From assembly GCA_963698275.1 (NCBI GenBank), contig CAVOQE010000006.1, positions 79,682 to 143,681 on the forward strand: 64,000 nucleotides of DNA. The letters are read 5' to 3'. The notes under the pieces are model-generated. The model did not search any database and was not told where the DNA came from. It saw only the letters and a list, made by a program, of their open reading frames with translations. The translations under genes and the position numbers were made by a program. Below, in pieces: positions 1,102-50,441 of the stretch (the first letter of the stretch is position 1; every line of letters begins with the position of its first letter). This stretch comes from an uncultured Alphaproteobacteria bacterium (GTDB lineage Bacteria; Pseudomonadota; Alphaproteobacteria; Rhizobiales; Aestuariivirgaceae).

Positions 1102-1113
1102 GGAGGATAGATC

Positions 1114-1329: not shown

Positions 1330-1347
1330 ATCACCTTGCTAAGGCAA

Positions 1348-1383: not shown

Positions 1384-1480
1384 GCCTGTAAAGAAAAAAA
1401 CATTCCTCTGAGTTGAAAACGTTTCCCGTTGGTGATAGCGTTTTTGGAGATGGCAACCACCTAATTGGATAGAACAATAA

Positions 1481-2377: not shown

Positions 2378-2381
2378 GCCC

Positions 2382-3065: not shown

Positions 3066-3074
3066 GGGGTGACC

Positions 3075-4424: not shown

Positions 4425-4470
4425 AACACGAAGACAACAATCACAGAGATTTCCGGGAGGACACAAATCC

Positions 4471-5778: not shown

Positions 5779-5857
5779 TTCAAATACCGGCTGGTAAACA
5801 GGTGTCAAAACTGATTTAATCCAACGGGTTATCAGCCACATTTAATGGAGCGTCCGA

Positions 5858-6430
5858 GTGCTTCCCGATGATCTGCGCAATCACTTCCTGACCTGGCAAT
5901 GCCGCATAAGGCAAATCGCCATGCGGGAGGAAGAAGGCCGTCCCAGCCAGGGCATGCGGCCGCGTGTTCTTGATGCGACAGGAAAGCAGTTGTCGGCTGG
6001 CATTATTGTCCTGCTGGTGCGTGAGGATTCATTTGAAAGCACCGAGTTTCTGAAATTCCAGGTGCAGAAGTACAACGACCCGCAGGACGTTTACAAAAAG
6101 GCGCTGATCTTCCTGCAGTCCACCCATTACCACCGCGCCGCAGAATTTTCTGACGAAATGACCGGATTGTTCGGCACCGGCTCGGAGCTGGTCGAACGCA
6201 TGACGGGCGACGAAAAGATCACTCTGGAGTTCAGCCAGTTTTCCCAAACCTACCGAATTCCCTGCAAGATCCGCTTGCTGGATGCTGATGAAGAGGCTTA
6301 TCAGGCGACGCTGTGGCACAACCGGGTCTTCAATCCGAATATCGGCTCAGATATCGAGATCGTGGGTTTCCAGCCGGACTGGGATGCAGCAGTTGCGCTA
6401 CTGAATAATGACGCAAAAGCAGCCAGCTAA
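5858..6430 (+). CDS. Hypothetical protein (190 aa), no recognisable domain
   Basis: Only long ORF in this interval. GTG start 80 nt after gmaS on the same strand. Composition looks protein-like rather than like an antisense shadow. No motif recognised. Confidence 0.45.
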   Translation: MLPDDLRNHFLTWQCRIRQIAMREEEGRPSQGMRPRVLDATGKQLSAGIIVLLVREDSFESTEFLKFQVQKYNDPQDVYKKALIFLQSTHYHRAAEFSDEMTGLFGTGSELVERMTGDEKITLEFSQFSQTYRIPCKIRLLDADEEAYQATLWHNRVFNPNIGSDIEIVGFQPDWDAAVALLNNDAKAAS

Positions 6431-6524
6431 GCCAACTCCTTCAACAGATTTATGACGCTATGTGGTGAGCTCGAGCCGATGTGGTAGTTGCAAAAACCGC
6501 GTCCCTAGAGTGCGATGAGGGTTA

Positions 6525-7758: not shown

Positions 7759-7919
7759 TGCGCACCCCTCGGCCGGCCTGTTCGCACTGGTAGACTTCTC
7801 ATCCGAAGCGTTGTTCCTTTCCCCGAACATCTGCGGGTGTGCGATTGACGCATACCCGGCAACGATGTTTTTGTTTCAGTGCAGACCAACCATTCCGGGC
7901 AGAAAGGGCCACCAAGGCG

Positions 7920-8702: not shown

Positions 8703-8750
8703 GACACTGCACGCACTTCTGCGTGGCCATACGCCCCGTCGAACTTCGAA

Positions 8751-9563
8751 CTATTTTGGCCCTGTTGACGCGATCAGTTGACCATCTGCGGCCATTACAA
8801 TTTCACCACTGCCAAATGATCGCCAGGACTCATCGGTCAAAGGAACACTTGCGATCAGAACGACACGCTGATGTGCCGCGTCCACAGTGAGCCCTTCAGC
8901 CTCAAATTCAGCACCGGAAGGCGGACATTCGCGGATGAGGACGTGAAGGCCCGGCGGGCCGATGACACCAGAGGTTTGATGACGCCGGTCGCCGTGAGCG
9001 ATCACGACATCGCCATCCCAGTAAAGAAAGTTGGCCGGACCTAACGGACGCAGGTCCCGTGCAAATCTGGACACTGTCTCAAAGCGCGCTTCAAGTGATG
9101 GTGGCCGGTCTTTATCCAACCAATCAGTCTCCAGCCGCGCGAGGAGCGCGCAAAACGCATATTCGGAATCTGTTTCGCCTACCGGTCGATGTCGACCCAA
9201 TGGAAACAACTTGCCGTTCGTTACATCGGGAACATGACCGTTGTGCGCGAAGGCATGAATGCGCCCTCCGAGTTCGCGAATGAAAGGCTGTGTATTCTTG
9301 AGAGCCAGTGTGCCGGTGGTTCGCTTGCGGATATGTGAAATCACCGCCCGACTGCGAATGGGATGGTTTTCCAGGAACTGCAGCCAGGGGCTGCTGCTTG
9401 CAGCCGTAGTGTCCTTGACAACACGAACGTCACCGTCCTCCGCAAATGCGATACCCCAGCCATCCTTGTGTGGCCCTGTCAGGCCGCCATGCTGAGCGAA
9501 CTCCTCAAGTGAAAAGGTGACCGTCGCCGGCACGCTGCTGGACATGGCAAACAGCTCGCACAT
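8751..9563 (-). CDS. Class-II glutamine amidotransferase (YafJ/EgtC-like)
   Basis: With ATG 9563 the protein begins M-C-E-L-F (Ntn Cys2). Motifs DGWGIAF, ISHIRKRT, NTQPF and FAHNG are present. Confidence 0.8.
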   Translation of the reverse strand: MCELFAMSSSVPATVTFSLEEFAQHGGLTGPHKDGWGIAFAEDGDVRVVKDTTAASSSPWLQFLENHPIRSRAVISHIRKRTTGTLALKNTQPFIRELGGRIHAFAHNGHVPDVTNGKLFPLGRHRPVGETDSEYAFCALLARLETDWLDKDRPPSLEARFETVSRFARDLRPLGPANFLYWDGDVVIAHGDRRHQTSGVIGPPGLHVLIRECPPSGAEFEAEGLTVDAAHQRVVLIASVPLTDESWRSFGSGEIVMAADGQLIASTGPK

Positions 9564-9662
9564 GGGTCCTCCTTTTGTCCGGTGTCGTGCAGCGGCACAT
9601 AGCAAAATGTTCGAGTGTCACTTATCTCGACGTTAGTGGGCCAAAACCGGAGTTTCGCCAGT

Positions 9663-9965
9663 TCACTGATCGATGTCGGCAACAGCCAGCGCTTTCAGGA
9701 AGGCGACGAGATCACAATCACGTGCTTCATCCGTTGTGCCGTGCGACTGTAATTTCACACAGACTGAACCTTGGGCCAATGCTTCATCCTCGCCAAAATA
9801 CTGCTTGGCGAGGTGGGCTGGCGAATGGCAGATTCTGCAGTGCTTCGCGAACAGATCGCGCCCTCGCACAGCGTTGCCGGTCCTGCCGGTTTCCTCAAGT
9901 TCAACCGCAGACGGCAGTTCCAGAGCCGCGATACGATCCCAGTCACTGCTTCCATTCGCGGACAT
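9663..9965 (-). CDS. Small c-type cytochrome-like protein (single CXXCH)
   Basis: GRDLFAKHCRICHS is a typical class-I cytochrome c haem motif. Start is uncertain and no signal peptide is visible from Met 9965. Overlaps the stop of the upstream gene. Confidence 0.45.
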   Translation of the reverse strand: MSANGSSDWDRIAALELPSAVELEETGRTGNAVRGRDLFAKHCRICHSPAHLAKQYFGEDEALAQGSVCVKLQSHGTTDEARDCDLVAFLKALAVADIDQ

Positions 9966-10587
9966 CTGCAGCCTTTGCTGGATCAAAGACCTTGTACAGG
10001 GAAAACGCGCCGCGAATATCCCCGACCTCATAGCCGATTGCCTGGTCTTGCGGATAAAGCTCTTTGATCGCCGTTGTGACTTCTGGCGCAATCTGTTTGC
10101 CATGGCAGGCCAGGCACGTGTCAAAAGTGGGGATTGCCTGCATGAAATGTACGGTTTGCGTTCCGTCTCGATCGAACAGCCTTGTTGATCTGAGCATTTC
10201 AGGACCTTGTCCGGCCATCGCCCGCAATTCGAAGCTCATCATCATGCTGCGTTCCCGCGTGTCGGGCATATTCTCGGGGTTGCGCACACGTAACCCTATG
10301 CGACGGATTTGCCACCCTGTTTCCTTTTCAATCTGGTCTTCAATCTCCGGTGCCAGATGCCGACACACACCGATCGCCTGTTTGACGCCGCCCTGCATGG
10401 CGGTCTGCATCTCCCGCATCATTACCTGACGCAGGCGCTGGAGTGTCTGCTGCGCTTCCAGTTCGTAATTTTTGAGGCTTTGCGCATGGACACCGTTACC
10501 AGCGGCGAAAGCAAAAAGGACAATAGTAATTATCAAACGCACCACCACACACTTCCATCCGTTGCGCATGACGAAAACAGCGGTCAA
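9943..10587 (-). CDS. DUF3365-like periplasmic haem protein
   Basis: N-terminal signal/anchor (VVVRLIITIVLFAFAAGNGVHAQ). C-terminal CLACHG haem motif, with overall length and layout as in DUF3365 (Tll0287-like) proteins. Confidence 0.6.
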   Translation of the reverse strand: MTAVFVMRNGWKCVVVRLIITIVLFAFAAGNGVHAQSLKNYELEAQQTLQRLRQVMMREMQTAMQGGVKQAIGVCRHLAPEIEDQIEKETGWQIRRIGLRVRNPENMPDTRERSMMMSFELRAMAGQGPEMLRSTRLFDRDGTQTVHFMQAIPTFDTCLACHGKQIAPEVTTAIKELYPQDQAIGYEVGDIRGAFSLYKVFDPAKAADVREWKQ

Positions 10588-10611
10588 ACCGTGCTCGCCC
10601 TGAGCGAAATA

Positions 10612-11037
10612 TTAATCGTCCCGTTCAGAGCGAAGTACTTCACCGGTGATACCGTCCACGTAGAGCTCAACCCGATTGCCGTTGGCATCAATGGTCTTCA
10701 CTTCGTAACGCTTGCCGCTTTCGGCTTCGATCTTTGAAATCTCGCCATAACCCTGCTGCTTCAATTTATCGGCAATCTCATCTGTCGACATCATGGGCAT
10801 GCGGCTACGAACGCCACCGCCAGTCGTATCAAGAGCCTGCTGACAGGAGCTTGACAATTTTGCCCGATTGTCCTCCAGACAGGCGCGAACCGCGCCAGCA
10901 CCATGGTCTTTATCAGCACAATATTGAGTAATTTCCGATGCGCATTGGGTCTTGACCGGGCCACCTTGAGCAACTGCCGGAGCTGACAGGATCGTTACAA
11001 TGCCAGCGGAGATCATCAGTTTTTTCGACGTATTCAT
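10612..11037 (-). CDS. Secreted PepSY-domain protein with Cys-rich N-terminal repeat
   Basis: Signal peptide MNTSKKLMISAGIVTILSAPAVAQ. Cys-rich segment CASEITQYCADK...ACLEDN...SCQQAL. C-terminus YEVKTIDANGNRVELYVDGITGEVL is PepSY-like. Confidence 0.7.
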   Translation of the reverse strand: MNTSKKLMISAGIVTILSAPAVAQGGPVKTQCASEITQYCADKDHGAGAVRACLEDNRAKLSSSCQQALDTTGGGVRSRMPMMSTDEIADKLKQQGYGEISKIEAESGKRYEVKTIDANGNRVELYVDGITGEVLRSERDD

Positions 11038-11261
11038 AGTCAGAGTCCTTCTTCGGATTGGGTTTCTGCTAAGTTACCGCCTTGTACGGACAATTCGCAG
11101 ATCCGCCGACTTCGTTCCTTGATGGGGATCAATAGAAATGGAAAATTTTTTGCAACCTTGGCGTGCCGCAGCCTTCGCCAGGTTGACGCCCAGGTTTTCG
11201 GCACGAACGTGTATCAGGTTTTGATTGAACCAAAACCGCGCACACTTTTGTGAGACTTGCT

Positions 11262-11639
11262 CTAGTTGGTCGCTGAAAAACCAACGCCGGGCGACAGGTA
11301 TTCCTTGCGCACCGGAGAGAAGATATCCAGCACTACTGCCCCGTCCGCCCCGGCCTTCATGGTGTGCAGTGCGTTGGGTGGTGTGCGCCAGATATCGCCC
11401 TTGTTGATCTGGAATTCCTCATCGTCCTGATAGCGGGTCGCTGACCCCGACAGCATGACGCCCCATTGCTCTTCAGGGTGTTTGTGCATCTTTCCCATGG
11501 CATGAGGATCAATGCGCACAACCGACAGCATGGCGTTCTCACCTGGAAAAATGGTGGTTGTCATGCCGTCTGCAAGTTGACGGAAAATGCCGCCTTCCTC
11601 ACTGTCGAGATTGAAGAGTTCAATTTTCGAACGGGCCAT
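11262..11639 (-). CDS. Cupin-domain protein, last gene of the second GS/Mgs-like operon
   Basis: Cupin motifs GKMHKHPEEQWGVMLSG and GDIWRTPPNALH. ATG 11639 is preceded by AGGAG. Lies 73 nt downstream of the 136-aa gene on the same strand. Confidence 0.7.
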   Translation of the reverse strand: MARSKIELFNLDSEEGGIFRQLADGMTTTIFPGENAMLSVVRIDPHAMGKMHKHPEEQWGVMLSGSATRYQDDEEFQINKGDIWRTPPNALHTMKAGADGAVVLDIFSPVRKEYLSPGVGFSATN

Positions 11640-11712
11640 TGACCACTCCTGTTTTAAAGCAATGCCCCGCTGGACCACAATCCGGCGGGGCATTAGGTTG
11701 TTCAGCTATCGC

Positions 11713-12123
11713 CTAGAATTTCCGGTAGGCCTTGTTCAGGACCACCATGGGGTGATCCGGTGACATCTGGAATTTGATCAGCAGTTCACGCGCGATCATG
11801 TCGCGATCCTGCTGATTGTCCGGCAGGTCGTAACTTTCAGGGATCGCCACCCAGCCATTGATGTTGCGGTCAAAAACGGCGGGTTTGCCGTCGTCGTACC
11901 CCATGTGAACATCTTCCAGCCAGTTGAGATCTTCCCAACCCATGAACTCGATGTAGCCCTTTAGAAAATCGGTTATGCGGTTGTAGTCAGGCAACAGGTT
12001 CACATCATAGCGATAGCCAATGTGCTGTCCGATGACCTGCTCGCGTTCCGAGTCAATGCCACCACCCTTGAGGAAGTGATCGACGTCTCCGATCTCGGCG
12101 CCTTTGTAGCTGGTTCCAGCCAT
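11713..12123 (-). CDS. Conserved-looking hypothetical protein (136 aa), cotranscribed with the GS/Mgs-like genes
   Basis: ATG lies 13 nt after the stop of the FMN-subunit gene and has a perfect AAGGAGGA SD. Acidic, Trp/Tyr-rich soluble protein. No motif recognised. Confidence 0.7.
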   Translation of the reverse strand: MAGTSYKGAEIGDVDHFLKGGGIDSEREQVIGQHIGYRYDVNLLPDYNRITDFLKGYIEFMGWEDLNWLEDVHMGYDDGKPAVFDRNINGWVAIPESYDLPDNQQDRDMIARELLIKFQMSPDHPMVVLNKAYRKF

Positions 12124-12136
12124 CTTCGTGTCCTCC

Positions 12137-13519
12137 TTAAATATGGTGGTAGTCGTCTACGCCAACCGTGAAGTCGGTGCCGGCAAGCGGCACCTGGGCG
12201 ATTGCCGAGGCTTCCATCGTCAACGCAGCCAGATCTTCCGGTTCCAGACTGTGAATATTGGTCTTGCCGCAGGCCCGCGCCATCATCTGGGCTTCCATGG
12301 TCAACGTATGCAGGAAGTTGTAGACGCGTTCTGCTGCTTGATCCGGGTCGAGACGCTTGCGCAACATCGGATCCTGGGTTGCCACACCGACCGGGCAACG
12401 CCCGGTATGGCAGTGGTAACACTCGCCTGCCTCCACTCCCATCTCGGATGGATAGTCGGCTTCCTCGATATCCTTGTTGCAGTTCAGCGCCATCATGGCG
12501 GAATGACCGATTGCGATGGCGTCGGCTCCCAGAGCCAGTGCCTTTGCAACATCACCGCCATTGCGGATACCACCGGCGTAAACCAGCGTTATCTCGCCGC
12601 GCTTGCCGATATCATCGATGGCACGGCGCGCCTGGCGGATGGCCGCCATGCCGGGCACCCCGGTTTCTTCCGTTGCCAGGTGCGGGCCGGCGCCGGTGCC
12701 GCCTTCCATGCCATCGATATAGATCGAGTCCGGATCACACTTTGCCGCCATGCGCACATCATCATAGACGCGGGCTGCGCCCAGCTTGAGCTGGATCGGG
12801 ATCTGCCAGTCGGTCGCTTCACGGATTTCCTGGATCTTCAGCGCCAGATCATCCGGTCCGAGCCAGTCCGGGTGACGCGCCGGTGAGCGCTGGTCAATAC
12901 CGGCTGGAAGCGAGCGCATTTCAGCAACCTGGTCGGTTACCTTCTGGCCCATCAGGTGGCCGCCGAGACCAACCTTACAGCCCTGTCCGATGAAAAACTC
13001 GCAACCATCGGCCAGTTGCAGATGGTGCGGGTTGAAACCGTAGCGCGACTGGATGCACTGATAGAACCATTTCGACGAATAACGCCGCTCATCCGGGATC
13101 ATGCCGCCTTCACCGGAACACGTTGCCGTGCCGGCCATGGTCGCCCCACGGGCCAACGCGGTTTTGGCCTCGAATGACAGCGCGCCAAAACTCATGCCGG
13201 TAATGTAGATCGGAATATCCAGTTCAATGGGACGCTTGGCACGCGGGCCGATAATGGTCTTGGTCAGGCATTTTTCACGGTACCCTTCAATCACGAAACG
13301 GGTCAGCGTGCCGGGAAGAAAGGTCAGATCGTCCCAGTGAGGGATTTTCTTGAACAGGGAAAATCCGCGCATGCGGTAACGGCCGAGCTCGGACTTGATG
13401 TGAATATCGTTCATCACCTCCGGCGGAAACACAAACGATTTGCCGAGCTTGTACTTCTTCTCGACCTGCAACTTGGAATGGCCGGTGTCTTTTTTGGTCT
13501 TGCCAGTCATTGAATTCAC
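12137..13519 (-). CDS. MgsC/GlxD-like FMN-binding glutamate-synthase-domain protein (paralog 2)
   Basis: Motifs GMSFGALS, GQGCKVGLGGHL, IDGMEGGTGAGP, YAGGIRNGGDVAKALALGADAIAIG. Collinear with mgsC at 3075..4424 but clearly divergent. Confidence 0.85.
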   Translation of the reverse strand: MNSMTGKTKKDTGHSKLQVEKKYKLGKSFVFPPEVMNDIHIKSELGRYRMRGFSLFKKIPHWDDLTFLPGTLTRFVIEGYREKCLTKTIIGPRAKRPIELDIPIYITGMSFGALSFEAKTALARGATMAGTATCSGEGGMIPDERRYSSKWFYQCIQSRYGFNPHHLQLADGCEFFIGQGCKVGLGGHLMGQKVTDQVAEMRSLPAGIDQRSPARHPDWLGPDDLALKIQEIREATDWQIPIQLKLGAARVYDDVRMAAKCDPDSIYIDGMEGGTGAGPHLATEETGVPGMAAIRQARRAIDDIGKRGEITLVYAGGIRNGGDVAKALALGADAIAIGHSAMMALNCNKDIEEADYPSEMGVEAGECYHCHTGRCPVGVATQDPMLRKRLDPDQAAERVYNFLHTLTMEAQMMARACGKTNIHSLEPEDLAALTMEASAIAQVPLAGTDFTVGVDDYHHI

Positions 13520-13553
13520 TTTCTTACATTGTTGGAGCCTGAAAACCTGATCC

Positions 13554-14402
13554 CTAAAGGACCAGTTTTTTCTCCGACGGTTCGAGGTTGTCGTAGCTCC
13601 ACAGCTGCTTGCCGGCGACGATCTTGGTAAAATGATCCACGCCCTTGTCCGGCATCATCTCGTATTGCGTCAGCTTGCGGGTCAGCCAGGCCTTGTCCAG
13701 ATCGGTCAGTTCCGCGGGAATGGCGTCCACGCCCAGATCCTTTATTTCACCACCGATGAAGATGGTGCCGTCATACATGCTGTCACCGAGGTTCTTGCCG
13801 GCATTGCCGCACACGACCATGCGGCCACGCTGCATCATGAAGCCGGAAAATGCACCGGTGTCGCCGCCGACCAGAATGGTTCCGCCCTTCTGGTCGATAC
13901 CGGTCCGGGACCCGACCGATCCCTTGCACACAAGGTCACCGCCACGAATGGCTGCACCGAAGGTCGAGCCTGCATTCTTCTCAACGACACAGACACCGGC
14001 CATCATGTTCTCTGCAAAAGACCAGCCGACACGACCGGAAATGCGAACAGTCGGGCCATCAAGCAGGCCGCAGCCGAAATAGCCCAGAGACCCGTTCACG
14101 ATGAAATTCATCCGGTGCAGAATGCCGACAATGATCGAATGCTTGGCACCGGGGTTTTCAAGGACAATGGTGCCGTGGCCGGATTTTATCAGCTCGCGGA
14201 TTTCCTTGTTTATCTCGGTTGCTTCCTTGTCCTGGCAATCAACCGATCCACGCTTGTTGAAGTCCACATCCGGTGCAAACGCATAGGCATAACCGCCTTC
14301 GTTCTCCAGCGAGAACATCGTCTTGATGTCACGTCCCTTGAGCGGCTCCGTGTGGAGACCCATCATTTCGCCGGCATCGCCTGAGGTATCTACGCCTGCC
14401 AT
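13554..14402 (-). CDS. MgsB/GlxC-like GXGXG-domain protein (paralog 2)
   Basis: GXGXG-type repeats ISGRVGWSFAENM, VCKGSVGSRTG, LVGGDTGAFSGF, VVCGNAGKNLG. Overlaps the upstream gene by 13 nt. Confidence 0.85.
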   Translation of the reverse strand: MAGVDTSGDAGEMMGLHTEPLKGRDIKTMFSLENEGGYAYAFAPDVDFNKRGSVDCQDKEATEINKEIRELIKSGHGTIVLENPGAKHSIIVGILHRMNFIVNGSLGYFGCGLLDGPTVRISGRVGWSFAENMMAGVCVVEKNAGSTFGAAIRGGDLVCKGSVGSRTGIDQKGGTILVGGDTGAFSGFMMQRGRMVVCGNAGKNLGDSMYDGTIFIGGEIKDLGVDAIPAELTDLDKAWLTRKLTQYEMMPDKGVDHFTKIVAGKQLWSYDNLEPSEKKLVL

Positions 14403-15325
14403 ACTCTTACCTCCTCGTCATAAGGGTCCCAGGTATCTATTTCGTGGGGAACAATTGCCCGGATCGCGACTTCCTCTGAAGCCAGGGCAACCATGTCGTC
14501 GGTTTCGTAGAGCACCATCGGTTTGGCCGCCATGGAGTCCTTGGCCATGCCAAGCTGATCCTTTGTGGTCACCAGGTAGGTGAAGACACCATCGATCTCT
14601 TCGATGGACTTCTTCAGCGTTTCTTCCAGTGTCATGCCCTTTTCCAGGCTGGTGGCCACGTAAACCGCAAGCAGTTCGGAATCGCAGTTTGAAACGAAGC
14701 GCTGTCCCTTACGCTCCAGGTCGCGGCGCATCAGCCAGTAATTGGTGATCTGGCCGTTATGCACCACTGCGATGTCGCTGTAGGGGTAGGCCCAGTACGG
14801 GTGAGCCGAGCGGATGTCGACATCCGACTCCGTGGCCATGCGGGTATGCCCGATACCGTGGCTTCCGGTGAAATTTCCCAGCCCGTAGGCGCCGGACACC
14901 ACACCTGCGTCGCCCAAGTCCTTGATCAGTTCAAGCGCCGAGCCTATCGACAGGATTTCCGCACCTTCTATATCCTCGATATGATCGGACAGCAGTTTCA
15001 TGTCGCCGTCATATTGAATGGCGTAACGAAACGCATACTCGGTCGCGTCTTTCATTTCGGAAACCGTCACGCCGAGCGCCTTCAACGTCTCGTCGACGGC
15101 ATCCTTGCGGCGCTTGATTTCCTCGTGAATCTTGAGTGCGCCGTGCAGGTCTTCCTGCTCGGCAACCTTGAAGCGCAAGACAAAAGTGTTTTCCTTAGGT
15201 TCGCCGTAAATCGCAAACCCGGTTGAATCCGGCCCCCGGTGCTTCAGGGCCTGCAGCATGCTGGTCATTTCCTGACCGACATTGCTGGTGCCCTTCCGGT
15301 GGATCAGCCCTGCAATTCCGCACAT
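14390..15325 (-). CDS. MgsA/GlxB-like class-II glutamine amidotransferase (paralog 2)
   Basis: From ATG 15325 the protein starts M-C-G-I-A-G (Ntn Cys2). Motifs GHTRMATES and HNGQITNY present. Confidence 0.85.
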   Translation of the reverse strand: MCGIAGLIHRKGTSNVGQEMTSMLQALKHRGPDSTGFAIYGEPKENTFVLRFKVAEQEDLHGALKIHEEIKRRKDAVDETLKALGVTVSEMKDATEYAFRYAIQYDGDMKLLSDHIEDIEGAEILSIGSALELIKDLGDAGVVSGAYGLGNFTGSHGIGHTRMATESDVDIRSAHPYWAYPYSDIAVVHNGQITNYWLMRRDLERKGQRFVSNCDSELLAVYVATSLEKGMTLEETLKKSIEEIDGVFTYLVTTKDQLGMAKDSMAAKPMVLYETDDMVALASEEVAIRAIVPHEIDTWDPYDEEVRVWQA

Positions 15326-15402
15326 GGGCATATGTCTCCTGTTGAGTGGGTTGCACGGCGGACCGCCGCCCGCCGCAAATCAGTTTCAAGAATGGCCGGT
15401 TT

Positions 15403-16881
15403 TTACGGCAGGCATTCCATGTAGGTTTCTTTGTCCCAATCGGTGACGGAAGCCATGAAGCGCGCCCATTCATCCGATTTGTACTCATGGTAGAGCCGGT
15501 ACATTTCACCGGGCAGGCCGCGCTGGACGACTTCATCTGCCTCCAGCGCCTCAAGCGCCTCGCCAAGCGACATCGGCAGCTTCTTCACATCCTTGCCGGC
15601 CTTGATGGCCTCATAGATGTTTCTTTCTTCAGGCTCACCGGGGTCGAGCTTGTTGACGATGCCGTCATCGGCTGCTGCCAGAATGCAGGCGCCCATGAGG
15701 TACGGGTTCACCATGGAGTCCACCGAGCGGTATTCAAACCGGCCCGGTGCCGACACCCGCAAGCCAGTGGTGCGGTTCTGGAAGCCCCAGTCAGCAAACA
15801 CCGGTGCCCAGAAGCCGGTATCCCACAGGCGGCGATACGAGTTCACGGTTGATGAGCCGATTGCGGTCAATGCCCGCAAGTGATGCACAATACCACCGAT
15901 TGCTTCCAGTCCCGCTTTCTGCGGCATCTGGGGATCATCACCATCCGGCATGAAGGTGTTGTCTCCACCTTTCACATACATGTAGTTGTCCTTCATGCCC
16001 GGCAGTGCTTTCGGGTCATTGCCGGTGCGGCAGAACTCATCCTCACCGCCATGCCACAGCGACATGTTATGGTGACAACCGGACGCCGAAACGCCCTCGA
16101 AAGGCTTGGTCATGAAGCAGGCAAAAATGCCGAACTCACGGGCAACCTGGGCACAAATCTGCCGGTATGTGGTCAACCGGTCCGCATTGCGCAGCACGTC
16201 ATCGTACATCCAGTTGAGTTCCAGCTGACCCGGTGCATCCTCATGATCGCCCTGGATCATGTCCAGCCCCATGGCCCGGGAGTATTCCATGACTTTCATG
16301 TAGACAGGACGCAGGCTCTCGAACTGGTCGATATGGTAGCAGTAGGGCTTGGAATAGCCCTCTTCCGGCTTGCCGTCCTCGTTGTACTTGAGCCACATCA
16401 TTTCCGGCTCGGTACCGACACGCAGGCTGAGGCCCTTGTGCTTTGCCTTGAAGTCATCGTGCAGGCGGCGCAGGTTGCCGCGGCAGTCCGCCGTCAGGTA
16501 CCCGCCTGGATCTTCCTTTTCCTCGCGATTGCGGAACAAGGTGCAATAAAAGCGCCCGATGCGCTTGTCCCATGGCAACTGCATGAAGGTTTCAGGCTCC
16601 GGTATGCCAACCAGTTCAGCTGCTTCGGGACCATAACCGAGATACTCGCCGGCCCGGTTGGTGAACAGGTTCATCGTTGCGCCGTAGACGAGCTGGAAGC
16701 CCTTCTTGGCGACCGCTTCCCAGTGATCGGCCGGAATGCCCTTGCCCATTATCTTGCCGGTGACCGAGATGAACTGGAGGTAGAGATATTCAATCCCCAG
16801 CTCGTCGATCATTTTCCGGACTTCCTTGACCTTTTCGGCCCTGCCCGGCGCATCAACAAAATTCTCGATATCCATTGCCAT
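15403..16881 (-). CDS. Glutamine-synthetase-family enzyme (type III/GlnT-like, 492 aa), substrate unknown
   Basis: GS catalytic motifs DHEDAPGQLELNW, FMTKPFEGVSASGCHHNMS, NSYRRL, FQNRTTGLRVSAPGRFEYRSVDSMVNPYL. About 55 aa longer than the gmaS product in this window. AGGGAG SD lies 10 nt before ATG 16881. Confidence 0.85.
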   Translation of the reverse strand: MAMDIENFVDAPGRAEKVKEVRKMIDELGIEYLYLQFISVTGKIMGKGIPADHWEAVAKKGFQLVYGATMNLFTNRAGEYLGYGPEAAELVGIPEPETFMQLPWDKRIGRFYCTLFRNREEKEDPGGYLTADCRGNLRRLHDDFKAKHKGLSLRVGTEPEMMWLKYNEDGKPEEGYSKPYCYHIDQFESLRPVYMKVMEYSRAMGLDMIQGDHEDAPGQLELNWMYDDVLRNADRLTTYRQICAQVAREFGIFACFMTKPFEGVSASGCHHNMSLWHGGEDEFCRTGNDPKALPGMKDNYMYVKGGDNTFMPDGDDPQMPQKAGLEAIGGIVHHLRALTAIGSSTVNSYRRLWDTGFWAPVFADWGFQNRTTGLRVSAPGRFEYRSVDSMVNPYLMGACILAAADDGIVNKLDPGEPEERNIYEAIKAGKDVKKLPMSLGEALEALEADEVVQRGLPGEMYRLYHEYKSDEWARFMASVTDWDKETYMECLP

Positions 16882-16912
16882 TGCACGGTTTCTCCCTGCT
16901 TACACACCAAAG

Positions 16913-16942
16913 TGACCAATACCATACCAATGCTATACCAAT
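16913..16942. promoter_or_regulatory. Three ACCAAT direct repeats with exact 11-bp phasing upstream of the GS-like operon
   Basis: ACCAAT at 16915-16920, 16926-16931 and 16937-16942 (tgACCAATacc / atACCAATgct / atACCAATttt), 34-61 nt upstream of start codon 16881. They lie in the divergent region shared with the GntR gene. Confidence 0.55.
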
Positions 16943-17212
16943 TTTGACAACCTACAAAATGAACCAAGGCGTCTTTTCGCACAAAAACTCTCTTCAGCAG
17001 CAACAGTGTTTTTTGCGATCATGAATTGCGAACAGTTGCCAAAGCTGTATCGTCTGTGTGTATTCTCTTGCACTGGTCCGGCGGCCAGCGACAGGAAAAT
17101 GAATCAATAAAAACCTGCAACAATTTGATATATATGATATTTTATCGTATTTGTTGTTATGTTCAGCACAACTGAAACACCTGCTCGCAGATATTATTGC
17201 AAGGCAAAGGGA

Positions 17213-17914
17213 ATGATTTCGATCGAACACAAGAGCACCCGAGGAGCCCGGTCCATAACGTCCGAACTCCGTAAAGCCATCGAAACAGGCAGGTATCATG
17301 ACGGTGACCAATTGCCTCCGGAACGGGACCTTTCCGAAACCTATTCAGCGTCACGCAATACAATCAGAAAGGCGCTGGACAATCTTGAAGACGCCGGCCT
17401 GGTGGTTCGAAAGGTGGGCAGCGGCACCTTTGTCAATTATTCCGGGCCGGCCGATCTCGAGACCGAAAATGTTGTCGAGCAGATCAGCCCGTTGCAGTTG
17501 ATTGACGCACGTATCGGCTTTGAACGGCAGATGACACGACTGGCGGTGGTCCACGCCACAGGCCGGGACATCGAAAAGATGGAGTCCCTGCTGACCCAGC
17601 TGGAGGCGACAGAACACGACCGCAATGCTTTTACAAAACTGGATTCGGAATTCCACCACCAGCTGGCAAAAGCGTCCGGCAATCCATTGATTGTGAAATT
17701 GTATCATCAGATCAATGAAGTACGCACTCATTCCCAGTGGAGAAAGGCGCGTGAACTGGTTCTCAGCCCTGAGAAAATCCGCCAGTACAACAAGTTCCAC
17801 AGGGGCATACTCGACGCACTGATAAAACGCGACACCAAATCAGCAATCGACGCGCTGAATGCGCACATGGAACTGGCCCACCTTGACCTTGTCGGCACCG
17901 CCCCCGACGACTGA
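17213..17914 (+). CDS. GntR-family transcriptional regulator, FadR/FCD subfamily
   Basis: Winged-HTH motif GDQLPPERDLSETYSASRNTIRKALDNLEDAGLVVRKVGSGTFV, followed by a helical FCD-like C-terminal domain. The start could be 17159. Confidence 0.85.
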   Translation: MISIEHKSTRGARSITSELRKAIETGRYHDGDQLPPERDLSETYSASRNTIRKALDNLEDAGLVVRKVGSGTFVNYSGPADLETENVVEQISPLQLIDARIGFERQMTRLAVVHATGRDIEKMESLLTQLEATEHDRNAFTKLDSEFHHQLAKASGNPLIVKLYHQINEVRTHSQWRKARELVLSPEKIRQYNKFHRGILDALIKRDTKSAIDALNAHMELAHLDLVGTAPDD

Positions 17915-17937
17915 TCTGCAGGCCGGTGCCACGGCAG

Positions 17938-18801
17938 TCACCCAGAGCTGGCCAGTTGGGGTTTGCGCCCCTGCCCCTCATCAGTCACGCGAATAGGCCG
18001 GTCGTGCTGAAGTGCCGGAATCCTGGCTCTCGCAGCTGCAACCCTGGACATATCCAGCCTGGCGACAATGTATCCTTCACCATCGCCGGCGTCTGCCAGC
18101 ACCTCTCCCCATGGATCAATGATGAGAGAGTGTCCGTAGCATTCGCCGCCGCCCGATATTTTTCCGTACTGGCACGGGGCAATGACGAAGCATCCATTTT
18201 CAATGGCCCGGGCACGCTGCAGCACATGCCAATGTGCCTGACCGGTCACCTTGGTAAACGCAGCAGGCGTTGCCAGCACCTCGGCGCCCATCATGGCGAG
18301 CTGCCGATAAAGCGCTGCAAACCGCAAATCATAACAGATCGACAGCCCGATGCGGGCCCACGGCGTGTCTGCCACTATCGCCTGATCACCTGGCGATATG
18401 GTCGCTGACTCACGATAGGAGCCACCATCGAGATCCACGTCAAACATGTGAATTTTGTCATAGCGCGCGACTATCTCGCCGTCAGAGTTGATCAGGTAGG
18501 AGCGATTGGATATGCGGCCATCATGGTTTTGCACGCCGATAGAGCCGAGCAGGAACCAGACCCCAAGCTTGCGGGCAGCTTCGGCAAACGCTGGCAGCAC
18601 CGGATGATCTGCTTCAGGATAAGCGCCGGGAAGAAACAGCCCATCCCTGGTTTCCAGGCCGGAAAAATACTCAGGCGTTGCTATCAGCTGCGCCCCGTCG
18701 GCTGCGGCCGCACCGGCAAGTCGCAAGCTTGTCTCGATATTATGCCGGACATCCGGCGTGGCGCAGTTCTGAACACAGGCTATAGTGAACTTCTTGGACA
18801 T
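17938..18801 (-). CDS. Carbon-nitrogen hydrolase family amidase (Nit/omega-amidase-like)
   Basis: Glu-Lys-Cys triad contexts LIATPEYF, RYDKIHMFD, GLSICYDLRF. ATG 18801 (MSKKFTIACVQ) chosen. Confidence 0.8.
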   Translation of the reverse strand: MSKKFTIACVQNCATPDVRHNIETSLRLAGAAAADGAQLIATPEYFSGLETRDGLFLPGAYPEADHPVLPAFAEAARKLGVWFLLGSIGVQNHDGRISNRSYLINSDGEIVARYDKIHMFDVDLDGGSYRESATISPGDQAIVADTPWARIGLSICYDLRFAALYRQLAMMGAEVLATPAAFTKVTGQAHWHVLQRARAIENGCFVIAPCQYGKISGGGECYGHSLIIDPWGEVLADAGDGEGYIVARLDMSRVAAARARIPALQHDRPIRVTDEGQGRKPQLASSG

Positions 18802-18829
18802 TGCTTTGCTCCAGTGGCGGCTGTTTGCA

Positions 18830-18846
18830 ACCAATTTTATACCAAT
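18830..18846. promoter_or_regulatory. Two ACCAAT direct repeats, 11-bp phasing, upstream of the C-N hydrolase gene
   Basis: ACCAAT at 18830-18835 and 18841-18846 (caACCAATtttatACCAATtcg), 29-45 nt upstream of start 18801. Orientation relative to the gene is the same as the repeats at 16913-16942. Confidence 0.5.
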
Positions 18847-19015
18847 TCGGGCAGTTCGGAAGAGACTTGCAGGCCAAATCGCACAATACCCGGCCAGAAA
18901 TGGTGAACCAGCCCGGGGTGCAACTCAAAACCACTAACCCAATAACCCAAGCAGCACTCAACACTCAGTGCAAAGATCTTCATCCGCTGAATCAGGCTAA
19001 CACACCACAACTCAA

Positions 19016-19032
19016 CCAATTTTTCAAATTGG
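19016..19032. promoter_or_regulatory. Perfect inverted repeat CCAATTT-ttc-AAATTGG in the tmoX upstream region
   Basis: Read directly from the sequence. Embedded in caaCCAATTTTTCAAATTGGatc, about 155-170 nt upstream of the tmoX ATG. It shares the CAACCAATTTT core with 18828-18838. Confidence 0.45.
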
Positions 19033-19185
19033 ATCAAAATCGGTTCTATTTTGGGTTGATTTGGTTGAGGATTCAGCCAATAGTGCAAGTGATGTCGCCG
19101 CTGACGCAGACGGAACGAACATCCAAAAAGACAAATCAGCACTAGGACAGCCCGGCACGGGCTCATCAAACCCGGGAGGAATACG

Positions 19186-50435: not shown

Positions 50436-50441
50436 ATGACA

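What the first reader, a model, noticed from the sequence alone, without database searches (positions are those of the whole stretch)
11262..16881. Second, divergent GS-like + three-subunit glutamate-synthase-like operon of unknown substrate, between the NMG module and the TMAO module
Six tightly packed minus-strand genes encode a 492-aa type-III GS-family enzyme, an Ntn-Cys amidotransferase, a GXGXG protein, an FMN subunit, a 136-aa unknown protein and a cupin. All catalytic motifs are intact, and the proteins are collinear with gmaS/mgsABC 10 kb away but clearly divergent.

The gene order also differs. Here the synthetase comes first, whereas in the canonical module it comes last. The GS-like enzyme is about 55 aa longer than the gmaS product, and two extra genes are appended. 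This is therefore not a recent duplicate.

By analogy with GmaS/MgsABC, which form a gamma-glutamyl amide and then an N-alkylglutamate, the module could activate a different amine. Its location next to tmoXVW-tmm-tdm, and the absence of dmmDABC from the window, make DMA or another methylated or short-chain amine an attractive but unproven candidate.

The arrangement also recalls the glnT-glxBCD loci of rhizobia (from memory), whose physiological role is itself poorly defined.
Basis: partly seen in the sequence, partly recalled or inferred. Interest (0 to 1): 0.75.

Follow-up and report, generated by a model that had tools for sequence, protein, structure and literature searches.

The report
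Second glutamyl-amine module in trimethylamine island
A very widespread, highly conserved and uncharacterised five-gene module sits inside the trimethylamine-breakdown gene islands of marine bacteria; it attaches a small amine to glutamate and passes it to an iron-sulfur, glutamate-synthase-like enzyme, and it may be the missing route for dimethylamine.

Summary
The six minus-strand genes are real and lie at the stated coordinates. The conserved unit is five genes: a GS-like ligase (GS2), an Ntn amidotransferase, a GXGXG protein, an FMN subunit and an orphan 136-aa protein. The cupin occurs only in this genus.

At least 596 species genomes encode GS2 relatives. In the 80 loci kept, 61 of 68 with enough sequence carry the full core. 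It usually lies as GntR | GS2 block - CN-hydrolase - orf190 - tmm - tmoXVW/tdm.

It is a deep paralogue of GmaS/MgsABC (29-52% identity), not a copy. GS2 lacks the ammonia residues of true GS. It groups with P450-linked gamma-glutamyl-amine ligases rather than with GmaS/GlnT. The FMN subunit keeps the three 3Fe-4S cysteines of true glutamate synthase in 68 of 68 orthologues, and MgsC/GlxD have none.

No dmmABC lies in the window or in any GS2 locus. Plasmid tdm islands carry dmm and never GS2.

My best reading is a gamma-glutamyl route for dimethylamine (about 0.4). A second monomethylamine route (about 0.3) is not excluded. No paper describing the module was found.

The parts
15403..16881 (-). 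GS2: a 492-aa glutamine-synthetase-family ligase, predicted to be a gamma-glutamyl-(methyl)amine synthetase
   Evidence: It matches PF00120 at 3e-80 but falls below the TIGR03105 cut-off. It is 29% identical to the window's GmaS. The metal, ATP and Glu residues are kept, while D50->V, S53->A, Y179->C and E327->W; the GmaS motif QxDHEDAxGQxExNW is kept. Identity is 75-98% across the 80 genome loci kept (best hits of >=596 species genomes).
14390..15325 (-). GAT2: a class-II (Ntn-Cys) amidotransferase subunit, paralogous to MgsA
   Evidence: It matches GATase_6/7 and is 33% identical to MgsA. Its orthologues begin with MCGIAG.
13554..14402 (-). GXGXG2: a beta-helix GXGXG subunit, paralogous to MgsB
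   Evidence: It matches PF01493 and is 31% identical to MgsB. A natural GXGXG+FMN fusion protein, P0580, exists.
12137..13519 (-). FMN2: the FMN-binding glutamate-synthase-family subunit, which retains the Fe-S ligand cysteines
   Evidence: It matches PF01645 at 5e-91 and is 52% identical to MgsC. It is 84-96% identical across loci.
12395..12481 (-). Codons for Cys347, Cys367, Cys370 and Cys375 of FMN2 (LNC...CYHCHTGRCPVG)
   Evidence: Cys347, Cys370 and Cys375 align with Cys1102, Cys1108 and Cys1113 of A. brasilense GltS. The CxxCxxxxCPxG motif is present in 68 of 68 orthologues. These cysteines are absent from the window's MgsC and from A. tumefaciens GlxD.
11713..12123 (-). small136: an orphan 136-aa protein and the fifth conserved member of the module
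   Evidence: It has no Pfam or NCBIfam match. More than 8000 close homologues exist, but only 290 representatives at 50% clustering and no distant relatives. The AF2 model has pLDDT 72 and no PDB fold match. It follows FMN2 in 61 of 68 loci.
11262..11693 (-). Cupin_2 protein, a lineage-specific accessory gene
   Evidence: It matches PF07883. It is present in only 1 of 53 complete loci, the close Anderseniella relative L005.
16882..17158 (.). Divergent regulatory region between GS2 and the GntR gene, carrying TTGGTAT repeats
   Evidence: The sequence was read directly. TTGGTATA and TTGGATCA 8-mers recur in 24-27 of 71 equivalent regions.
17159..17914 (+). GntR/FCD-family regulator, divergently transcribed from the module
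   Evidence: It matches GntR and FCD domains. A homologue is adjacent in 52 of 53 loci.
17938..18834 (-). Nit-type CN-hydrolase, a frequent partner of the module
   Evidence: Its best NCBIfam match is deaminated-glutathione amidase, below cut-off. It directly follows small136 in 36 of 53 loci and lies on the GntR side of the block in four more loci (L005, L036, L071 and the short L028).
5858..6430 (+). orf190: a protein of unknown function that accompanies the module elsewhere; in this window it lies next to gmaS
   Evidence: It has no significant Pfam match (one weak NAPRTase hit, E 0.046, below cut-off). A homologue lies downstream of the block in 49 of 53 loci, usually just before tmm.

Best explanation
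The block is a self-contained catabolic module of the trimethylamine/TMAO gene island. It handles a small methylated amine through gamma-glutamyl chemistry, and that amine is most likely dimethylamine (DMA), the product of Tdm.

Step 1 (inferred from family and active-site residues): GS2 uses ATP to ligate the amine to the gamma-carboxyl of glutamate. With DMA the product would be N5,N5-dimethylglutamine.

Step 2 (inferred from homology to MgsABC and GltS): the Ntn amidotransferase GAT2 hydrolyses this amide. The released amine passes, within a complex held together by the GXGXG subunit, to the FMN subunit. There it condenses with 2-oxoglutarate or iminoglutarate and is reduced to an N-alkylglutamate, which with DMA would be N,N-dimethylglutamate.

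FMN2 differs from NMG synthase in keeping the Fe-S ligand cysteines of true glutamate synthase. This step is therefore probably coupled to an external electron donor or acceptor. The orphan 136-aa protein is a fifth, module-specific subunit of unknown role.

Step 3 (inferred from neighbours in other genomes): flavoprotein N-demethylases remove the methyl groups and leave glutamate. The candidates are a DAO-type oxidase encoded directly upstream of GS2 in 33 loci, followed by MgdABCD.

The Nit-type CN-hydrolase would recycle the 2-oxo (deaminated) form of the gamma-glutamyl amide. The divergent GntR/FCD protein regulates the operon.

What is shown: the gene set, its conservation, its synteny with tmm/tmoXVW/tdm, its distinctness from GmaS/MgsABC, and the absence of dmm nearby.

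What is not shown: the identity of the amine, the chemistry of step 2, and the direction of electron flow.
For: Genes and domains are established.

Conservation and synteny:
- At least 596 species genomes encode relatives.
- 61 of 68 loci carry the five-gene core.
- Of 53 loci with about 10 kb downstream, 52 have the GntR gene, 49 have orf190, 36 have the CN-hydrolase downstream, and 34 have tmm, tmoX or tdm in the flank.

GS2 is an amine ligase and not a GS:
- It has D50->V, S53->A, Y179->C and E327->W, with the metal, ATP and Glu residues kept.
- It keeps the catalytic Asp/Glu motif of GmaS.
- It clusters with GS-family genes of P450/ferredoxin/gamma-glutamyl-hydrolase clusters at 38-54% identity, apart from GmaS, GlnA and PuuA.

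The module differs from the NMG module:
- Identity to the canonical proteins is 29-52%.
- The Fe-S cysteines are present in 68 of 68 FMN2 orthologues and absent from MgsC and GlxD.
- An extra orphan subunit is present.
- Both modules lie side by side in the window, in Pikeienuella (L029) and in Methyloceanibacter (L042, L045, L066).

Evidence pointing to DMA:
- No DmmA, DmmB or DmmC is found in the window or in 84 GS2 loci.
- On plasmids, Tdm (139 records) and DmmC (148 records) share the same taxon distribution. DmmC lies within 6 kb of tdm in 9 of 11 islands read, and no plasmid has a GS2 orthologue.
- The GS2 block occupies the position between the regulator and the permease/tmm that dmmDABC holds in P. 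aminophilus and Thioclava.
- Many marine bacteria with tmm, tdm and gmaS lack dmm (PMC5520151).
- DMA can be gamma-glutamylated by a GmaS, but with a Km about 600 times higher than for MMA, which leaves room for a dedicated enzyme (PMC7948447).
- Two different N-methyl-amino-acid-oxidase-type enzymes (DAO447 and MgdABCD) flank the block in many genomes, as a two-methyl product would require.
Against: There is no biochemical, genetic or expression evidence for any substrate.

Every residue proposed to line the MMA pocket of RhGmaS is conserved in GS2. The sequence therefore does not favour DMA over MMA.

Amt-family (ammonium/methylammonium) transporters lie next to GS2 in some loci. The same is true of dmmDABC in Thioclava.

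Absence of dmm was tested only within about 10 kb of GS2 and within the 64-kb window, not across whole genomes.

Reductive amination of 2-oxoglutarate by a secondary amine has no precedent in this enzyme family.

The Fe-S cluster and its redox partner are inferred from cysteines alone.

The window itself lacks the DAO447, C26 and mgdABCD genes that complete the proposed pathway elsewhere.

The GS2-associated GntR proteins are only about 33% identical to the FCD regulators of dmm islands. Orthology with the DMA-sensing TmoR could not be tested.
Confidence: 0.4

Rival explanations
1. The block is a second monomethylamine route. GS2 would make gamma-glutamylmethylamide, and the GltS-like complex would make N-methylglutamate from it. 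It would use 2-oxoglutarate plus an external reductant through the Fe-S cluster, in place of the redox-neutral glutamate exchange of MgsABC. The module would then be an isofunctional alternative to GmaS/MgsABC, differing in affinity or regulation, that feeds MgdABCD.
For: All proposed MMA-pocket and catalytic residues of RhGmaS are conserved in GS2. The subunits are collinear with MgsABC, and FMN2 is 52% identical to MgsC. mgdABCD and a TmaR-like regulator lie just upstream in 15-18 loci. Amt transporters are adjacent in some loci. JGI pipelines already label FMN2 homologues 'methylamine-glutamate N-methyltransferase subunit C'. Bacteria without dmm are accepted to exist.
Against: The canonical gmaS-mgsABC sits next to the block in at least three lineages, including this window, so this reading requires adjacent redundancy. 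GS2 is no closer to GmaS (29-30%) than to E. coli GlnA (28%), and it groups with ligases from P450-type alkylamine clusters. The extra orphan subunit, the Fe-S cysteines, the frequent CN-hydrolase and the DAO447 gene have no role in the known NMG pathway.
Confidence: 0.3
2. The module acts on another nitrogen compound linked to TMA oxidation. Candidates are N-methyl- or N,N-dimethylhydroxylamine formed by Tmm from secondary amines, or ethylamine, ethanolamine or other short alkylamines. The Fe-S/FMN subunit would carry out a redox step specific to that compound.
For: The nearest relatives of GS2 at 38-54% identity serve P450-based alkylamine pathways whose substrates are unknown and probably larger. 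Seven loci pair GS2 with such a P450 plus a GMC oxidoreductase, an alpha/beta hydrolase and a C26 hydrolase. GmaS-type enzymes accept hydroxylamine and ethylamine. The Fe-S cysteines imply net redox chemistry.
Against: The synteny is specifically with tmm, tmoXVW and tdm. No transporter or dehydrogenase set for ethanolamine or polyamines recurs among the neighbours. The very high conservation of GS2 across hosts argues for one common, simple substrate.
Confidence: 0.15
3. The block is an ordinary ammonium-assimilation pair, that is a glutamine synthetase plus a split, ferredoxin-type glutamate synthase, co-located with amine catabolism to capture the released ammonium.
For: The domains are those of GS and of the three catalytic parts of GltS. 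FMN2 keeps the 3Fe-4S ligand cysteines of GltS. Amt genes are sometimes adjacent.
Against: GS2 lacks Asp50, Ser53, Tyr179 and the flap Glu327, which bind and deprotonate ammonium. It scores far below the GlnA and GlnT model cut-offs. FMN2 scores 134 bits against the 1047-bit cut-off of the GltB model. FMN2's closest characterised relatives are NMG synthase subunits.
Confidence: 0.04

Closest known systems
N-methylglutamate pathway module GmaS + MgsABC (gamma-glutamylmethylamide synthetase and N-methylglutamate synthase; glnT-glxBCD in rhizobia and SAR11)
   Same: Both combine a GS-family ligase with three separate proteins that correspond to the amidotransferase, GXGXG and FMN domains of glutamate synthase. 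The subunits are collinear. GS2 keeps the GmaS catalytic Asp/Glu motif and Trp in place of the flap Glu. Both lie in methylated-amine gene islands.
   Different: Identity is only 29-52%. The ligase comes first instead of last. GS2 has an insertion of about 27 aa and a longer subunit-interface loop, and it falls outside the GmaS/GlnT clade and below its HMM cut-off. FMN2 keeps the Fe-S ligand cysteines that MgsC and GlxD lack. An orphan fifth protein is always present. A Nit-type amidase in 36 of 53 loci and a DAO-type oxidase in 33 of 80 accompany it.
Glutamate synthase (GltS/GOGAT alpha subunit; Fd- or NADPH-dependent)
   Same: Both have an Ntn-Cys amidotransferase, an FMN (PF01645) domain and a GXGXG domain. 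The three cysteines that ligate the 3Fe-4S cluster of GltS are conserved in FMN2.
   Different: Here the domains are split into three polypeptides. No central domain or GltD partner is encoded nearby. A 17-residue insertion lies between the first and second Cys ligands, and a fourth Cys is present. The partner ligase is not a glutamine synthetase. Scores are far below the GltB model cut-off.
Gamma-glutamylation pathways for alkylamines (Ipu isopropylamine pathway of Pseudomonas, Puu putrescine pathway of E. coli; pathway details recalled from memory)
   Same: The first step is ATP-dependent gamma-glutamylation by a GS-family enzyme. GS2 belongs to the clade of ligases that sit beside P450, ferredoxin, C26 hydrolase and aldehyde dehydrogenase genes. 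Seven loci pair GS2 itself with such a P450 and a C26 hydrolase, and 42 of 80 loci have a C26 hydrolase nearby.
   Different: In the window and in 61 of 68 loci the gamma-glutamyl amide is handed to a GltS-like complex instead of a P450 or oxidase. The window itself has no C26 hydrolase.
Dimethylamine monooxygenase DmmDABC
   Same: It occupies the same place in the TMA island, between the regulator or permease and tmm/tdm. Its distribution appears complementary to the GS2 block in the loci examined.
   Different: There is no sequence relationship. Dmm is a haem/PAS, FNR-type reductase and GcvT system that needs O2 and NADPH. The resemblance is only a proposed functional analogy.

Membership tests
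Glutamine synthetase (ammonium-dependent, GlnA type) | Residues for binding and deprotonating ammonium: Asp50', Ser53', Tyr179 and the flap Glu327 (E. coli numbering) | tested here: not met
   GS2 has Val, Ala, Cys and Trp at these positions, in all six GS2 orthologues aligned. The TIGR00653 score is 254 against a cut-off of 429.
Glutamine synthetase superfamily (PF00120 fold, gamma-glutamyl-phosphate chemistry) | Metal, ATP and glutamate ligands: E129, E131, E212, E220, H269, R321, R339, R344, E357 and R359 | tested here: met
   All of these are conserved in GS2. The PF00120 match has E = 3e-80.
GmaS / GlnT (TIGR03105 'type III glutamate-ammonia ligase') | Score above the curated family cut-off and placement in the GmaS/GlnT clade | tested here: not met
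   GS2 scores 312 bits against a cut-off of 470. It is 29-31% identical to GmaS and GlnT. In the NJ tree GS2 groups with P450-linked GS-family proteins, apart from GmaS.
GmaS / GlnT | Catalytic Asp177 and Glu186 and pocket residues Tyr147, Gln175, Glu179, Asn188 and Lys30' of RhGmaS; Trp in place of the flap Glu | tested here: met
   The alignment to 7cql and the motif QGDHEDAPGQLELNW with KPYCY, GK47 and FWAP show this. These residues are also shared by the wider alkylamine-ligase clade, so they do not define substrate.
GmaS / GlnT | Preference for monomethylamine (micromolar Km) | not testable with these tools
   This needs enzyme assays.
N-methylglutamate synthase MgsABC | Three separate subunits: Ntn amidotransferase, GXGXG and FMN/PF01645 | tested here: met
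   The gene order GAT-GXGXG-FMN is the same as mgsABC.
N-methylglutamate synthase MgsABC | An FMN subunit of the Cys-less MgsC/GlxD type, consistent with a redox-neutral flavin-only enzyme | tested here: not met
   FMN2 carries LNC...CxxCxxxxCPxG in 68 of 68 orthologues. The window's MgsC and A. tumefaciens GlxD have GAYDDWHEG(R/K)DPAG at the same place.
Glutamate synthase (GltS alpha) | Three Cys ligands of the 3Fe-4S cluster (C1102, C1108 and C1113 in A. brasilense) | tested here: met
   The HMMER alignment to 1ea0, 2vdc and 7mfm pairs FMN2 Cys347, Cys370 and Cys375 with them. Cluster binding itself was not tested.
Glutamate synthase (GltS alpha) | Single multidomain polypeptide with a central domain; score above the GltB model cut-off; glutamine as amide donor supplied by a true GS | tested here: not met
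   The genes are split. The PRK11750 score is 134 against a cut-off of 1047. The partner ligase lacks the GS ammonium residues.
Ipu/Puu-type gamma-glutamyl amine pathways | GS-family ligase plus a class-I GATase/C26 gamma-glutamyl hydrolase and an oxidase or P450 acting on the glutamylated amine | tested here: inconclusive
   The ligase clade fits. A C26 hydrolase is present in 42 of 80 loci and a P450 in 7 of 80, but neither is in the window.
Dimethylamine monooxygenase DmmDABC | DmmA, a PDR/VanB reductase (DmmB), a DUF3445 haem subunit (DmmC) and a GcvT protein (DmmD) | tested here: not met
   tblastn with the P. aminophilus proteins finds no DmmA, DmmB or DmmC in the window or in 84 loci. 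The DmmD hits are the GcvT domain of Tdm or other GcvT-family proteins, without adjacent DmmA/B/C.

The most novel reading that the evidence does not exclude
A large share of marine TMA/TMAO-degrading bacteria do not use dimethylamine monooxygenase at all. They trap DMA with ATP as N5,N5-dimethylglutamine. They then convert it, through a previously unrecognised five-subunit, iron-sulfur glutamate-synthase-like enzyme that includes an orphan protein, to N,N-dimethylglutamate. This is demethylated twice to glutamate. Such a route would be oxygen-independent at the DMA step, would bypass free monomethylamine, and would partly dissolve the proposed 'DMA bottleneck' in the ocean.
Probability: 0.3. 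Interest if true: 0.85.

Novelty: new variant of a known kind. Interest (0 to 1): 0.72.

Why it matters
Methylated amines are a major marine nitrogen and carbon pool and are precursors of aerosols. The accepted pathway is Tmm, Tdm, Dmm, then GmaS/Mgs/Mgd. It has a known gap: many tmm- and tdm-carrying bacteria lack dmmDABC, and this has been read as a metabolic bottleneck that releases DMA (PMC5520151).

The module described here is abundant. GS2 relatives occur in at least 596 species genomes, and there are thousands of metagenomic proteins. GS2 and FMN2 are more conserved than Tmm or Tdm in the same loci. The module sits where dmm sits in other islands.

If it consumes DMA, gene-based budgets of marine DMA turnover would need revision. 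A new enzyme type would also be defined: a split GltS with an Fe-S site, a new subunit and an N-alkyl amide donor.

If it instead proves to be a second MMA route, it still shows that 'gmaS/mgsABC' counts from automated annotation mix two mechanistically different systems.

Either way the question can now be tested directly in cultured Roseovarius strains and in the P450-variant strains.

Tried and rejected
1. Literature. Six searches and reading of the Dmm, GmaS-structure, TmaR, SAR11 C1, P. aminophilus, Donghicola and Trichodesmium papers found no description of this block. A seventh query failed on a syntax error.

2. Fold of the 136-aa protein. The AF2 model has pLDDT 72, and Foldseek against the PDB gave no hit with E < 1. 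The exhaustive HMMER search found only near-identical relatives and frameshifted fragments. A remnant of the GltS central domain is therefore not supported.

3. orf190. It has no significant Pfam match (one weak NAPRTase hit, E 0.046, below cut-off) and no plasmid homologue. The single-sequence AF2 model is useless, with pLDDT 32.

4. Orthology of the GntR gene with the DMA-responsive TmoR of R. pomeroyi. The SPO1553 sequence was not obtainable. FCD regulators of dmm-type plasmid islands are only about 33% identical to GS2-associated GntRs. The result is inconclusive.

5. Whole-genome co-occurrence of the GS2 block with dmmDABC or canonical gmaS. This is not possible with the tools, because only about 10-kb flanks are available. 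The organism names in protein clusters did not help. The supplementary table of the TmaR paper lists only dmm-type strains.

6. Promoter and terminator scans gave numbers close to the shuffled expectation. Rfam found nothing in the window.

7. The three genes between the cupin and Stf0 (PepSY, Tll0287-like and GATase_4 at 8751-11037) were considered as module members. They were rejected because they are missing from the closest relative, L005.

8. The 'true GS/GOGAT' reading was rejected on active-site residues and model scores.

Full report
**1. Observation**

The window carries six consecutive minus-strand ORFs at the reported coordinates. They are tightly spaced, with gaps of 77, -13, 34, 13 and 19 bp. 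Their Pfam matches, in order along the operon, are as follows:

- Gln-synt_C (492 aa; called GS2 here)
- class-II glutamine amidotransferase (GAT2)
- GXGXG (GXGXG2)
- Glu_synthase/FMN (FMN2)
- nothing (136 aa; small136)
- Cupin_2

An amt gene and mgsA-mgsB-mgsC-gmaS lie at 28-5778. They are followed by an unknown 190-aa gene and a DAO-type oxidase. On the other side lie a divergent GntR/FCD regulator, a Nit-type CN-hydrolase, tmoXVW, tmm, a DUF1194 gene and tdm. The rest of the window holds unrelated functions and no dmmDABC or mgdABCD. The closest genome is an Anderseniella MAG, at 98% identity.

**2. The conserved unit, and where else it occurs**

The best 80 loci span Paracoccaceae, several Hyphomicrobiales families, SAR116, Rhodospirillaceae, Kiloniellaceae and gammaproteobacterial Granulosicoccaceae.

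I mapped the window's proteins onto these loci.

- 61 of 68 loci with at least 6 kb downstream have GS2-GAT2-GXGXG2-FMN2-small136 in that order.
- Among 53 loci with about 10 kb downstream, the GntR gene is adjacent in 52.
- A homologue of the window's orf190 follows the block in 49 of these.
- The CN-hydrolase follows small136 in 36 of these; it lies on the GntR side of the block in four more loci (L005, L036, L071 and the short L028), as it does in the window.
- 34 have tmm, tmoX or tdm within the flank.
- The cupin occurs in only one, the Anderseniella relative.

The usual arrangement is GntR <- -> GS2 block, CN-hydrolase, orf190, tmm, tmoXVW.

Clustering the remaining neighbour ORFs revealed further recurrent partners that the window lacks.

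- A DAO-family flavoprotein of about 447 aa, distantly related to SoxB and N-methyl-amino-acid oxidases, lies directly upstream of GS2 on the same strand in 33 of 80 loci.
- A class-I GATase/peptidase-C26 hydrolase lies nearby in 42 of 80 loci.
- Further upstream, a GlxA/AraC-type regulator and SoxB/SoxA genes (that is, mgdABCD) occur in 15-18 loci.

The proteins are unusually constrained. Median identity to the window across species is 84% for GS2 and 89% for FMN2. In the same loci it is 71% for Tmm, 56% for Tdm and 47% for TmoX. Metagenomic homologues number in the thousands.

**3. A second architecture**

Seven loci have a GS2 that is 82-83% identical to the window's but have no GltS-like genes. 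These come from Marinibacterium, Psychromarinibacter, Maritimibacter and several MAGs. In them GS2 is followed by a cytochrome P450. A GMC oxidoreductase, a MetX-like alpha/beta hydrolase and a C26 hydrolase lie alongside, again next to tmm-tdm and an amt gene.

That P450 is 53% identical to the P450 beside a GS-family gene on a Ruegeria plasmid. It is 51% identical to the P450 upstream of glnA-xplB in Gordonia KTR9. The C26 hydrolase of these loci is 45% identical to the one in the GltS-type loci.

The same ligase therefore feeds two alternative downstream machineries. This marks its product, a gamma-glutamyl amide, as the common intermediate.

**4. What GS2 is**

GS2 is 29% identical to the window's own GmaS. 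Its best solved relatives are GmaS structures (9qur and 7cql, E about 1e-57), followed closely by type I-alpha glutamine synthetases. It fails the curated cut-offs of every GS-type NCBIfam model.

In an alignment with E. coli GlnA and PuuA, the window GmaS and relatives, GS2 shows the following.

- All metal, ATP and glutamate ligands are kept.
- The ammonium-handling residues are replaced: Asp50 by Val, Ser53 by Ala, Tyr179 by Cys and the flap Glu327 by Trp. The last two changes are also seen in GmaS.
- The catalytic Asp/Glu pair and the proposed amine-pocket residues of RhGmaS (PMC7948447) are conserved.
- There is an insertion of about 27 residues (281-307) and a longer loop at residues 64-80. 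That loop corresponds to the neighbouring-subunit 'Asp50 loop', which closes the amine site in GS.

In a neighbour-joining tree GS2 does not group with GmaS, GlnA or PuuA. It groups with GS-family proteins at 53% identity on Ruegeria and Paracoccus plasmids. More distantly (38-45%) it groups with proteins of Rhodococcus opacus, Streptomyces clavuligerus and the GlnA-XplB fusion of Gordonia. Where the flanking genes are annotated (the Ruegeria, Paracoccus, Rhodococcus and Gordonia loci; the S. clavuligerus stretch carries no annotation), these relatives sit among combinations of P450 or other flavoprotein redox, ferredoxin, gamma-glutamyl-hydrolase and aldehyde-dehydrogenase genes. From memory, that is the hallmark of gamma-glutamylation pathways such as Ipu and Puu.

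GS2 is thus an amine gamma-glutamyl ligase. It is not a glutamine synthetase, and it is not a member of the GmaS/GlnT family in the strict sense.

**5. What the GltS-like part is**

GAT2, GXGXG2 and FMN2 are collinear with MgsA, MgsB and MgsC at 33, 31 and 52% identity. GAT2 orthologues start with Met-Cys-Gly, as an Ntn amidotransferase requires. A natural GXGXG-FMN fusion exists (P0580), which supports a physical complex.

The important difference lies in FMN2. Its sequence reads ...LNC347...C367YHC370HTGRC375PVGVATQD. In HMMER alignments to solved glutamate synthases, Cys347, Cys370 and Cys375 pair with Cys1102, Cys1108 and Cys1113 of the A. brasilense enzyme. From memory these are the 3Fe-4S ligands, and the numbering in the alignment agrees. 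A 17-residue insertion lies between the first two.

The CxxCxxxxCPxG motif is present in 68 of 68 FMN2 orthologues, and the upstream Cys in 65. The window's MgsC and the GlxD of an A. tumefaciens glnT-glxBCD locus have GAYDDWHEG(R/K)DPAG at the same place, with no cysteine.

As I recall the classical enzymology, NMG synthase is a flavin-only, redox-neutral enzyme. An Fe-S site in FMN2 therefore implies exchange of electrons with an outside partner, as in true glutamate synthase. The module is not simply MgsABC retuned to another amine.

The fifth protein, small136, is an orphan.

- It has no Pfam or NCBIfam family.
- An exhaustive search of 1.8 billion representatives returns only 290 sequences, all close relatives or fragments.
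- A moderately confident model (pLDDT 72) has no fold match in the PDB.
- It has many invariant His, Tyr, Met and Asp residues but no conserved Cys.

**6. Which amine?**

The evidence for a methylated amine is the synteny with tmm, tmoXVW and tdm in dozens of species. Within that set, several observations favour DMA.

(a) The window has every other step of the island (Tmm, Tdm, TmoXVW, GmaS/MgsABC) but no dmmDABC. tblastn with P. aminophilus DmmA, DmmB and DmmC finds nothing in the window or in any of the 84 GS2 loci.

(b) In the plasmid collection, Tdm (139 records) and DmmC (148 records) have the same taxon distribution. DmmC lies within 6 kb of tdm in 9 of 11 islands I read. No plasmid carries a GS2 orthologue.

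(c) The block sits where dmmDABC sits in other islands. Compare Roseovarius (GS2 block - CN-hydrolase - permease - orf - tmm) with P. aminophilus (tmm - permease - dmmDABC - tdm) and Thioclava (tmm - tdm - FCD - amt - dmmDABC).

(d) The canonical gmaS-mgsABC lies beside the block in three lineages. This argues for different substrates.

(e) A canonical GmaS turns over DMA, but with a Km of 16 mM against 27 uM for MMA. The chemistry is feasible, but a dedicated enzyme would be needed at marine concentrations.

(f) Two kinds of N-methyl-amino-acid-oxidase-type enzymes flank the block in many genomes. A product carrying two methyl groups would require this.

(g) Many marine bacteria with tmm, tdm and gmaS lack dmm (PMC5520151).

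Several points count against a firm call.

- The pocket residues do not discriminate MMA from DMA.
- Amt transporters adjoin GS2 in some loci, although they also adjoin dmm in Thioclava.
- Absence of dmm was tested only locally.
- mgdABCD and a TmaR-like regulator next to the block fit an MMA-to-NMG route equally well.

The GntR partner could be the counterpart of TmoR. TmoR is the DMA-responsive GntR repressor that sits next to an unknown gene and tmm in R. pomeroyi (PMC13390433). I could not obtain its sequence, and regulators from dmm-type islands are only about 33% identical.

**7. Model and rivals**

My best-supported model has confidence of about 0.4 for the DMA version. It is much higher, about 0.85, for the general statement that this is a distinct gamma-glutamyl-amine module of methylated-amine catabolism. 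The steps are as follows.

- GS2 ligates DMA to glutamate.
- GAT2 hydrolyses the amide and delivers the amine to FMN2.
- FMN2 forms an N-alkylglutamate with 2-oxoglutarate, using electrons that pass through the Fe-S site.
- Flavoprotein demethylases then regenerate glutamate.
- The Nit-type hydrolase belongs to the Nit1/Nit2 group, which acts on 2-oxoglutaramate-type amides (established knowledge). It would salvage the deaminated amide.

The rivals are a second MMA route (0.3), another N-compound such as methylated hydroxylamines or short alkylamines (0.15), and an ordinary GS/GOGAT pair (about 0.04, contradicted by the active-site residues).

**8. Comparison with what is known, and novelty**

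The module works like the NMG pathway and shares ancestry with it. It fails membership tests for GlnA, for GmaS/GlnT, for MgsC-type NMG synthase and for bona fide GltS (see the membership table).

No paper in the searchable library describes the module. A 2026 study of the pathway's regulation still lists Dmm as the only DMA step. Automated pipelines label its parts 'glutamine synthetase family protein', 'FMN-binding glutamate synthase family protein' or, at JGI, 'methylamine-glutamate N-methyltransferase subunit C'.

I therefore rate it a new variant of a known kind. It is of high interest because it is abundant, strongly conserved and positioned to answer the open question of DMA turnover. 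The substrate and chemistry remain inference.

Noticed in passing
L062, L063, L068, L070 (about 8300-20000), L031, L057, L060: An alternative architecture exists. The same GS2 (82-83% identical) is followed by a cytochrome P450 in place of the GltS-like genes. A GMC (choline-dehydrogenase-like) oxidoreductase, a MetX-like alpha/beta hydrolase and a C26 hydrolase lie alongside, next to amt, tmm and tdm.
   Followed up: partly
L092 4599-8370 (Gordonia KTR9 pGKT2); L085 9428-13449; L068 9971-12663: A P450 plus GS-family gene pair is conserved from actinobacterial RDX-degradation clusters (the P450 upstream of glnA-xplB) to Roseobacter plasmids and to the GS2-P450 loci. The P450s are 51-57% identical. 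The role of the GS-like part of GlnA-XplB may therefore also be gamma-glutamylation.
   Followed up: partly
window 5858-6430; downstream of the block in 49 of 53 loci: orf190 is a protein of about 190 aa with no significant Pfam match (one weak hit below cut-off) and no plasmid homologue. It accompanies the module and tmm almost everywhere. It is probably the 'gene of unknown function' reported between tmoR and tmm in R. pomeroyi. The single-sequence structure prediction failed.
   Followed up: partly
window 1-28015: The methylated-amine island of this organism lacks both dmmDABC and the four-subunit mgdABCD. The only candidate N-methylglutamate oxidase is a single 367-aa DAO-type gene at 6525-7628, which resembles ThiO and N-methyltryptophan oxidase.
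   Followed up: partly
window 16905-16945; GntR-proximal intergenic regions of 71 loci: Three TTGGTAT repeats lie between GS2 and the GntR gene. TTGGTATA and TTGGATCA 8-mers recur in 24-27 of 71 equivalent regions, so this is a candidate operator.
   Followed up: partly
loci L007-L084: GS2 and FMN2 (median 84% and 89% identity to the window) are much more conserved than Tmm (71%), Tdm (56%) or TmoX (47%) in the same loci. This indicates either extreme constraint or separate horizontal spread of the module, which also occurs in Gammaproteobacteria.
   Followed up: no
L042, L045, L066 (Methyloceanibacter), 3000-20000: Four GS-family genes lie within 20 kb: two GmaS-like genes at about 38% identity flanking an amt, then GS2, then the canonical gmaS. 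The GS2 block lies between them.
   Followed up: no
window 24828-25622: A DUF1194/VWA-domain gene sits between tmm and tdm. It is also present in the Anderseniella relative L005.
   Followed up: no
window 8751-11037: A GATase_4 (EgtC/YafJ-like class-II amidohydrolase), a Tll0287-like protein and a PepSY/Cys-rich secreted protein lie between the cupin and the Stf0 sulfotransferase. All three are missing at this position in the 98%-identical relative L005, so this is a recent insertion or deletion.
   Followed up: partly
window 49545-51473: A second CN-hydrolase lies next to a Porphyromonas-type agmatine deiminase. This is probably the N-carbamoylputrescine amidase/agmatine deiminase pair and is unrelated to the finding.
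   Followed up: no
window 21295-23469: The tmoW ORF is 724 aa and contains two BPD_transp_1 permease stretches, so it is a fused double permease.
   Followed up: no
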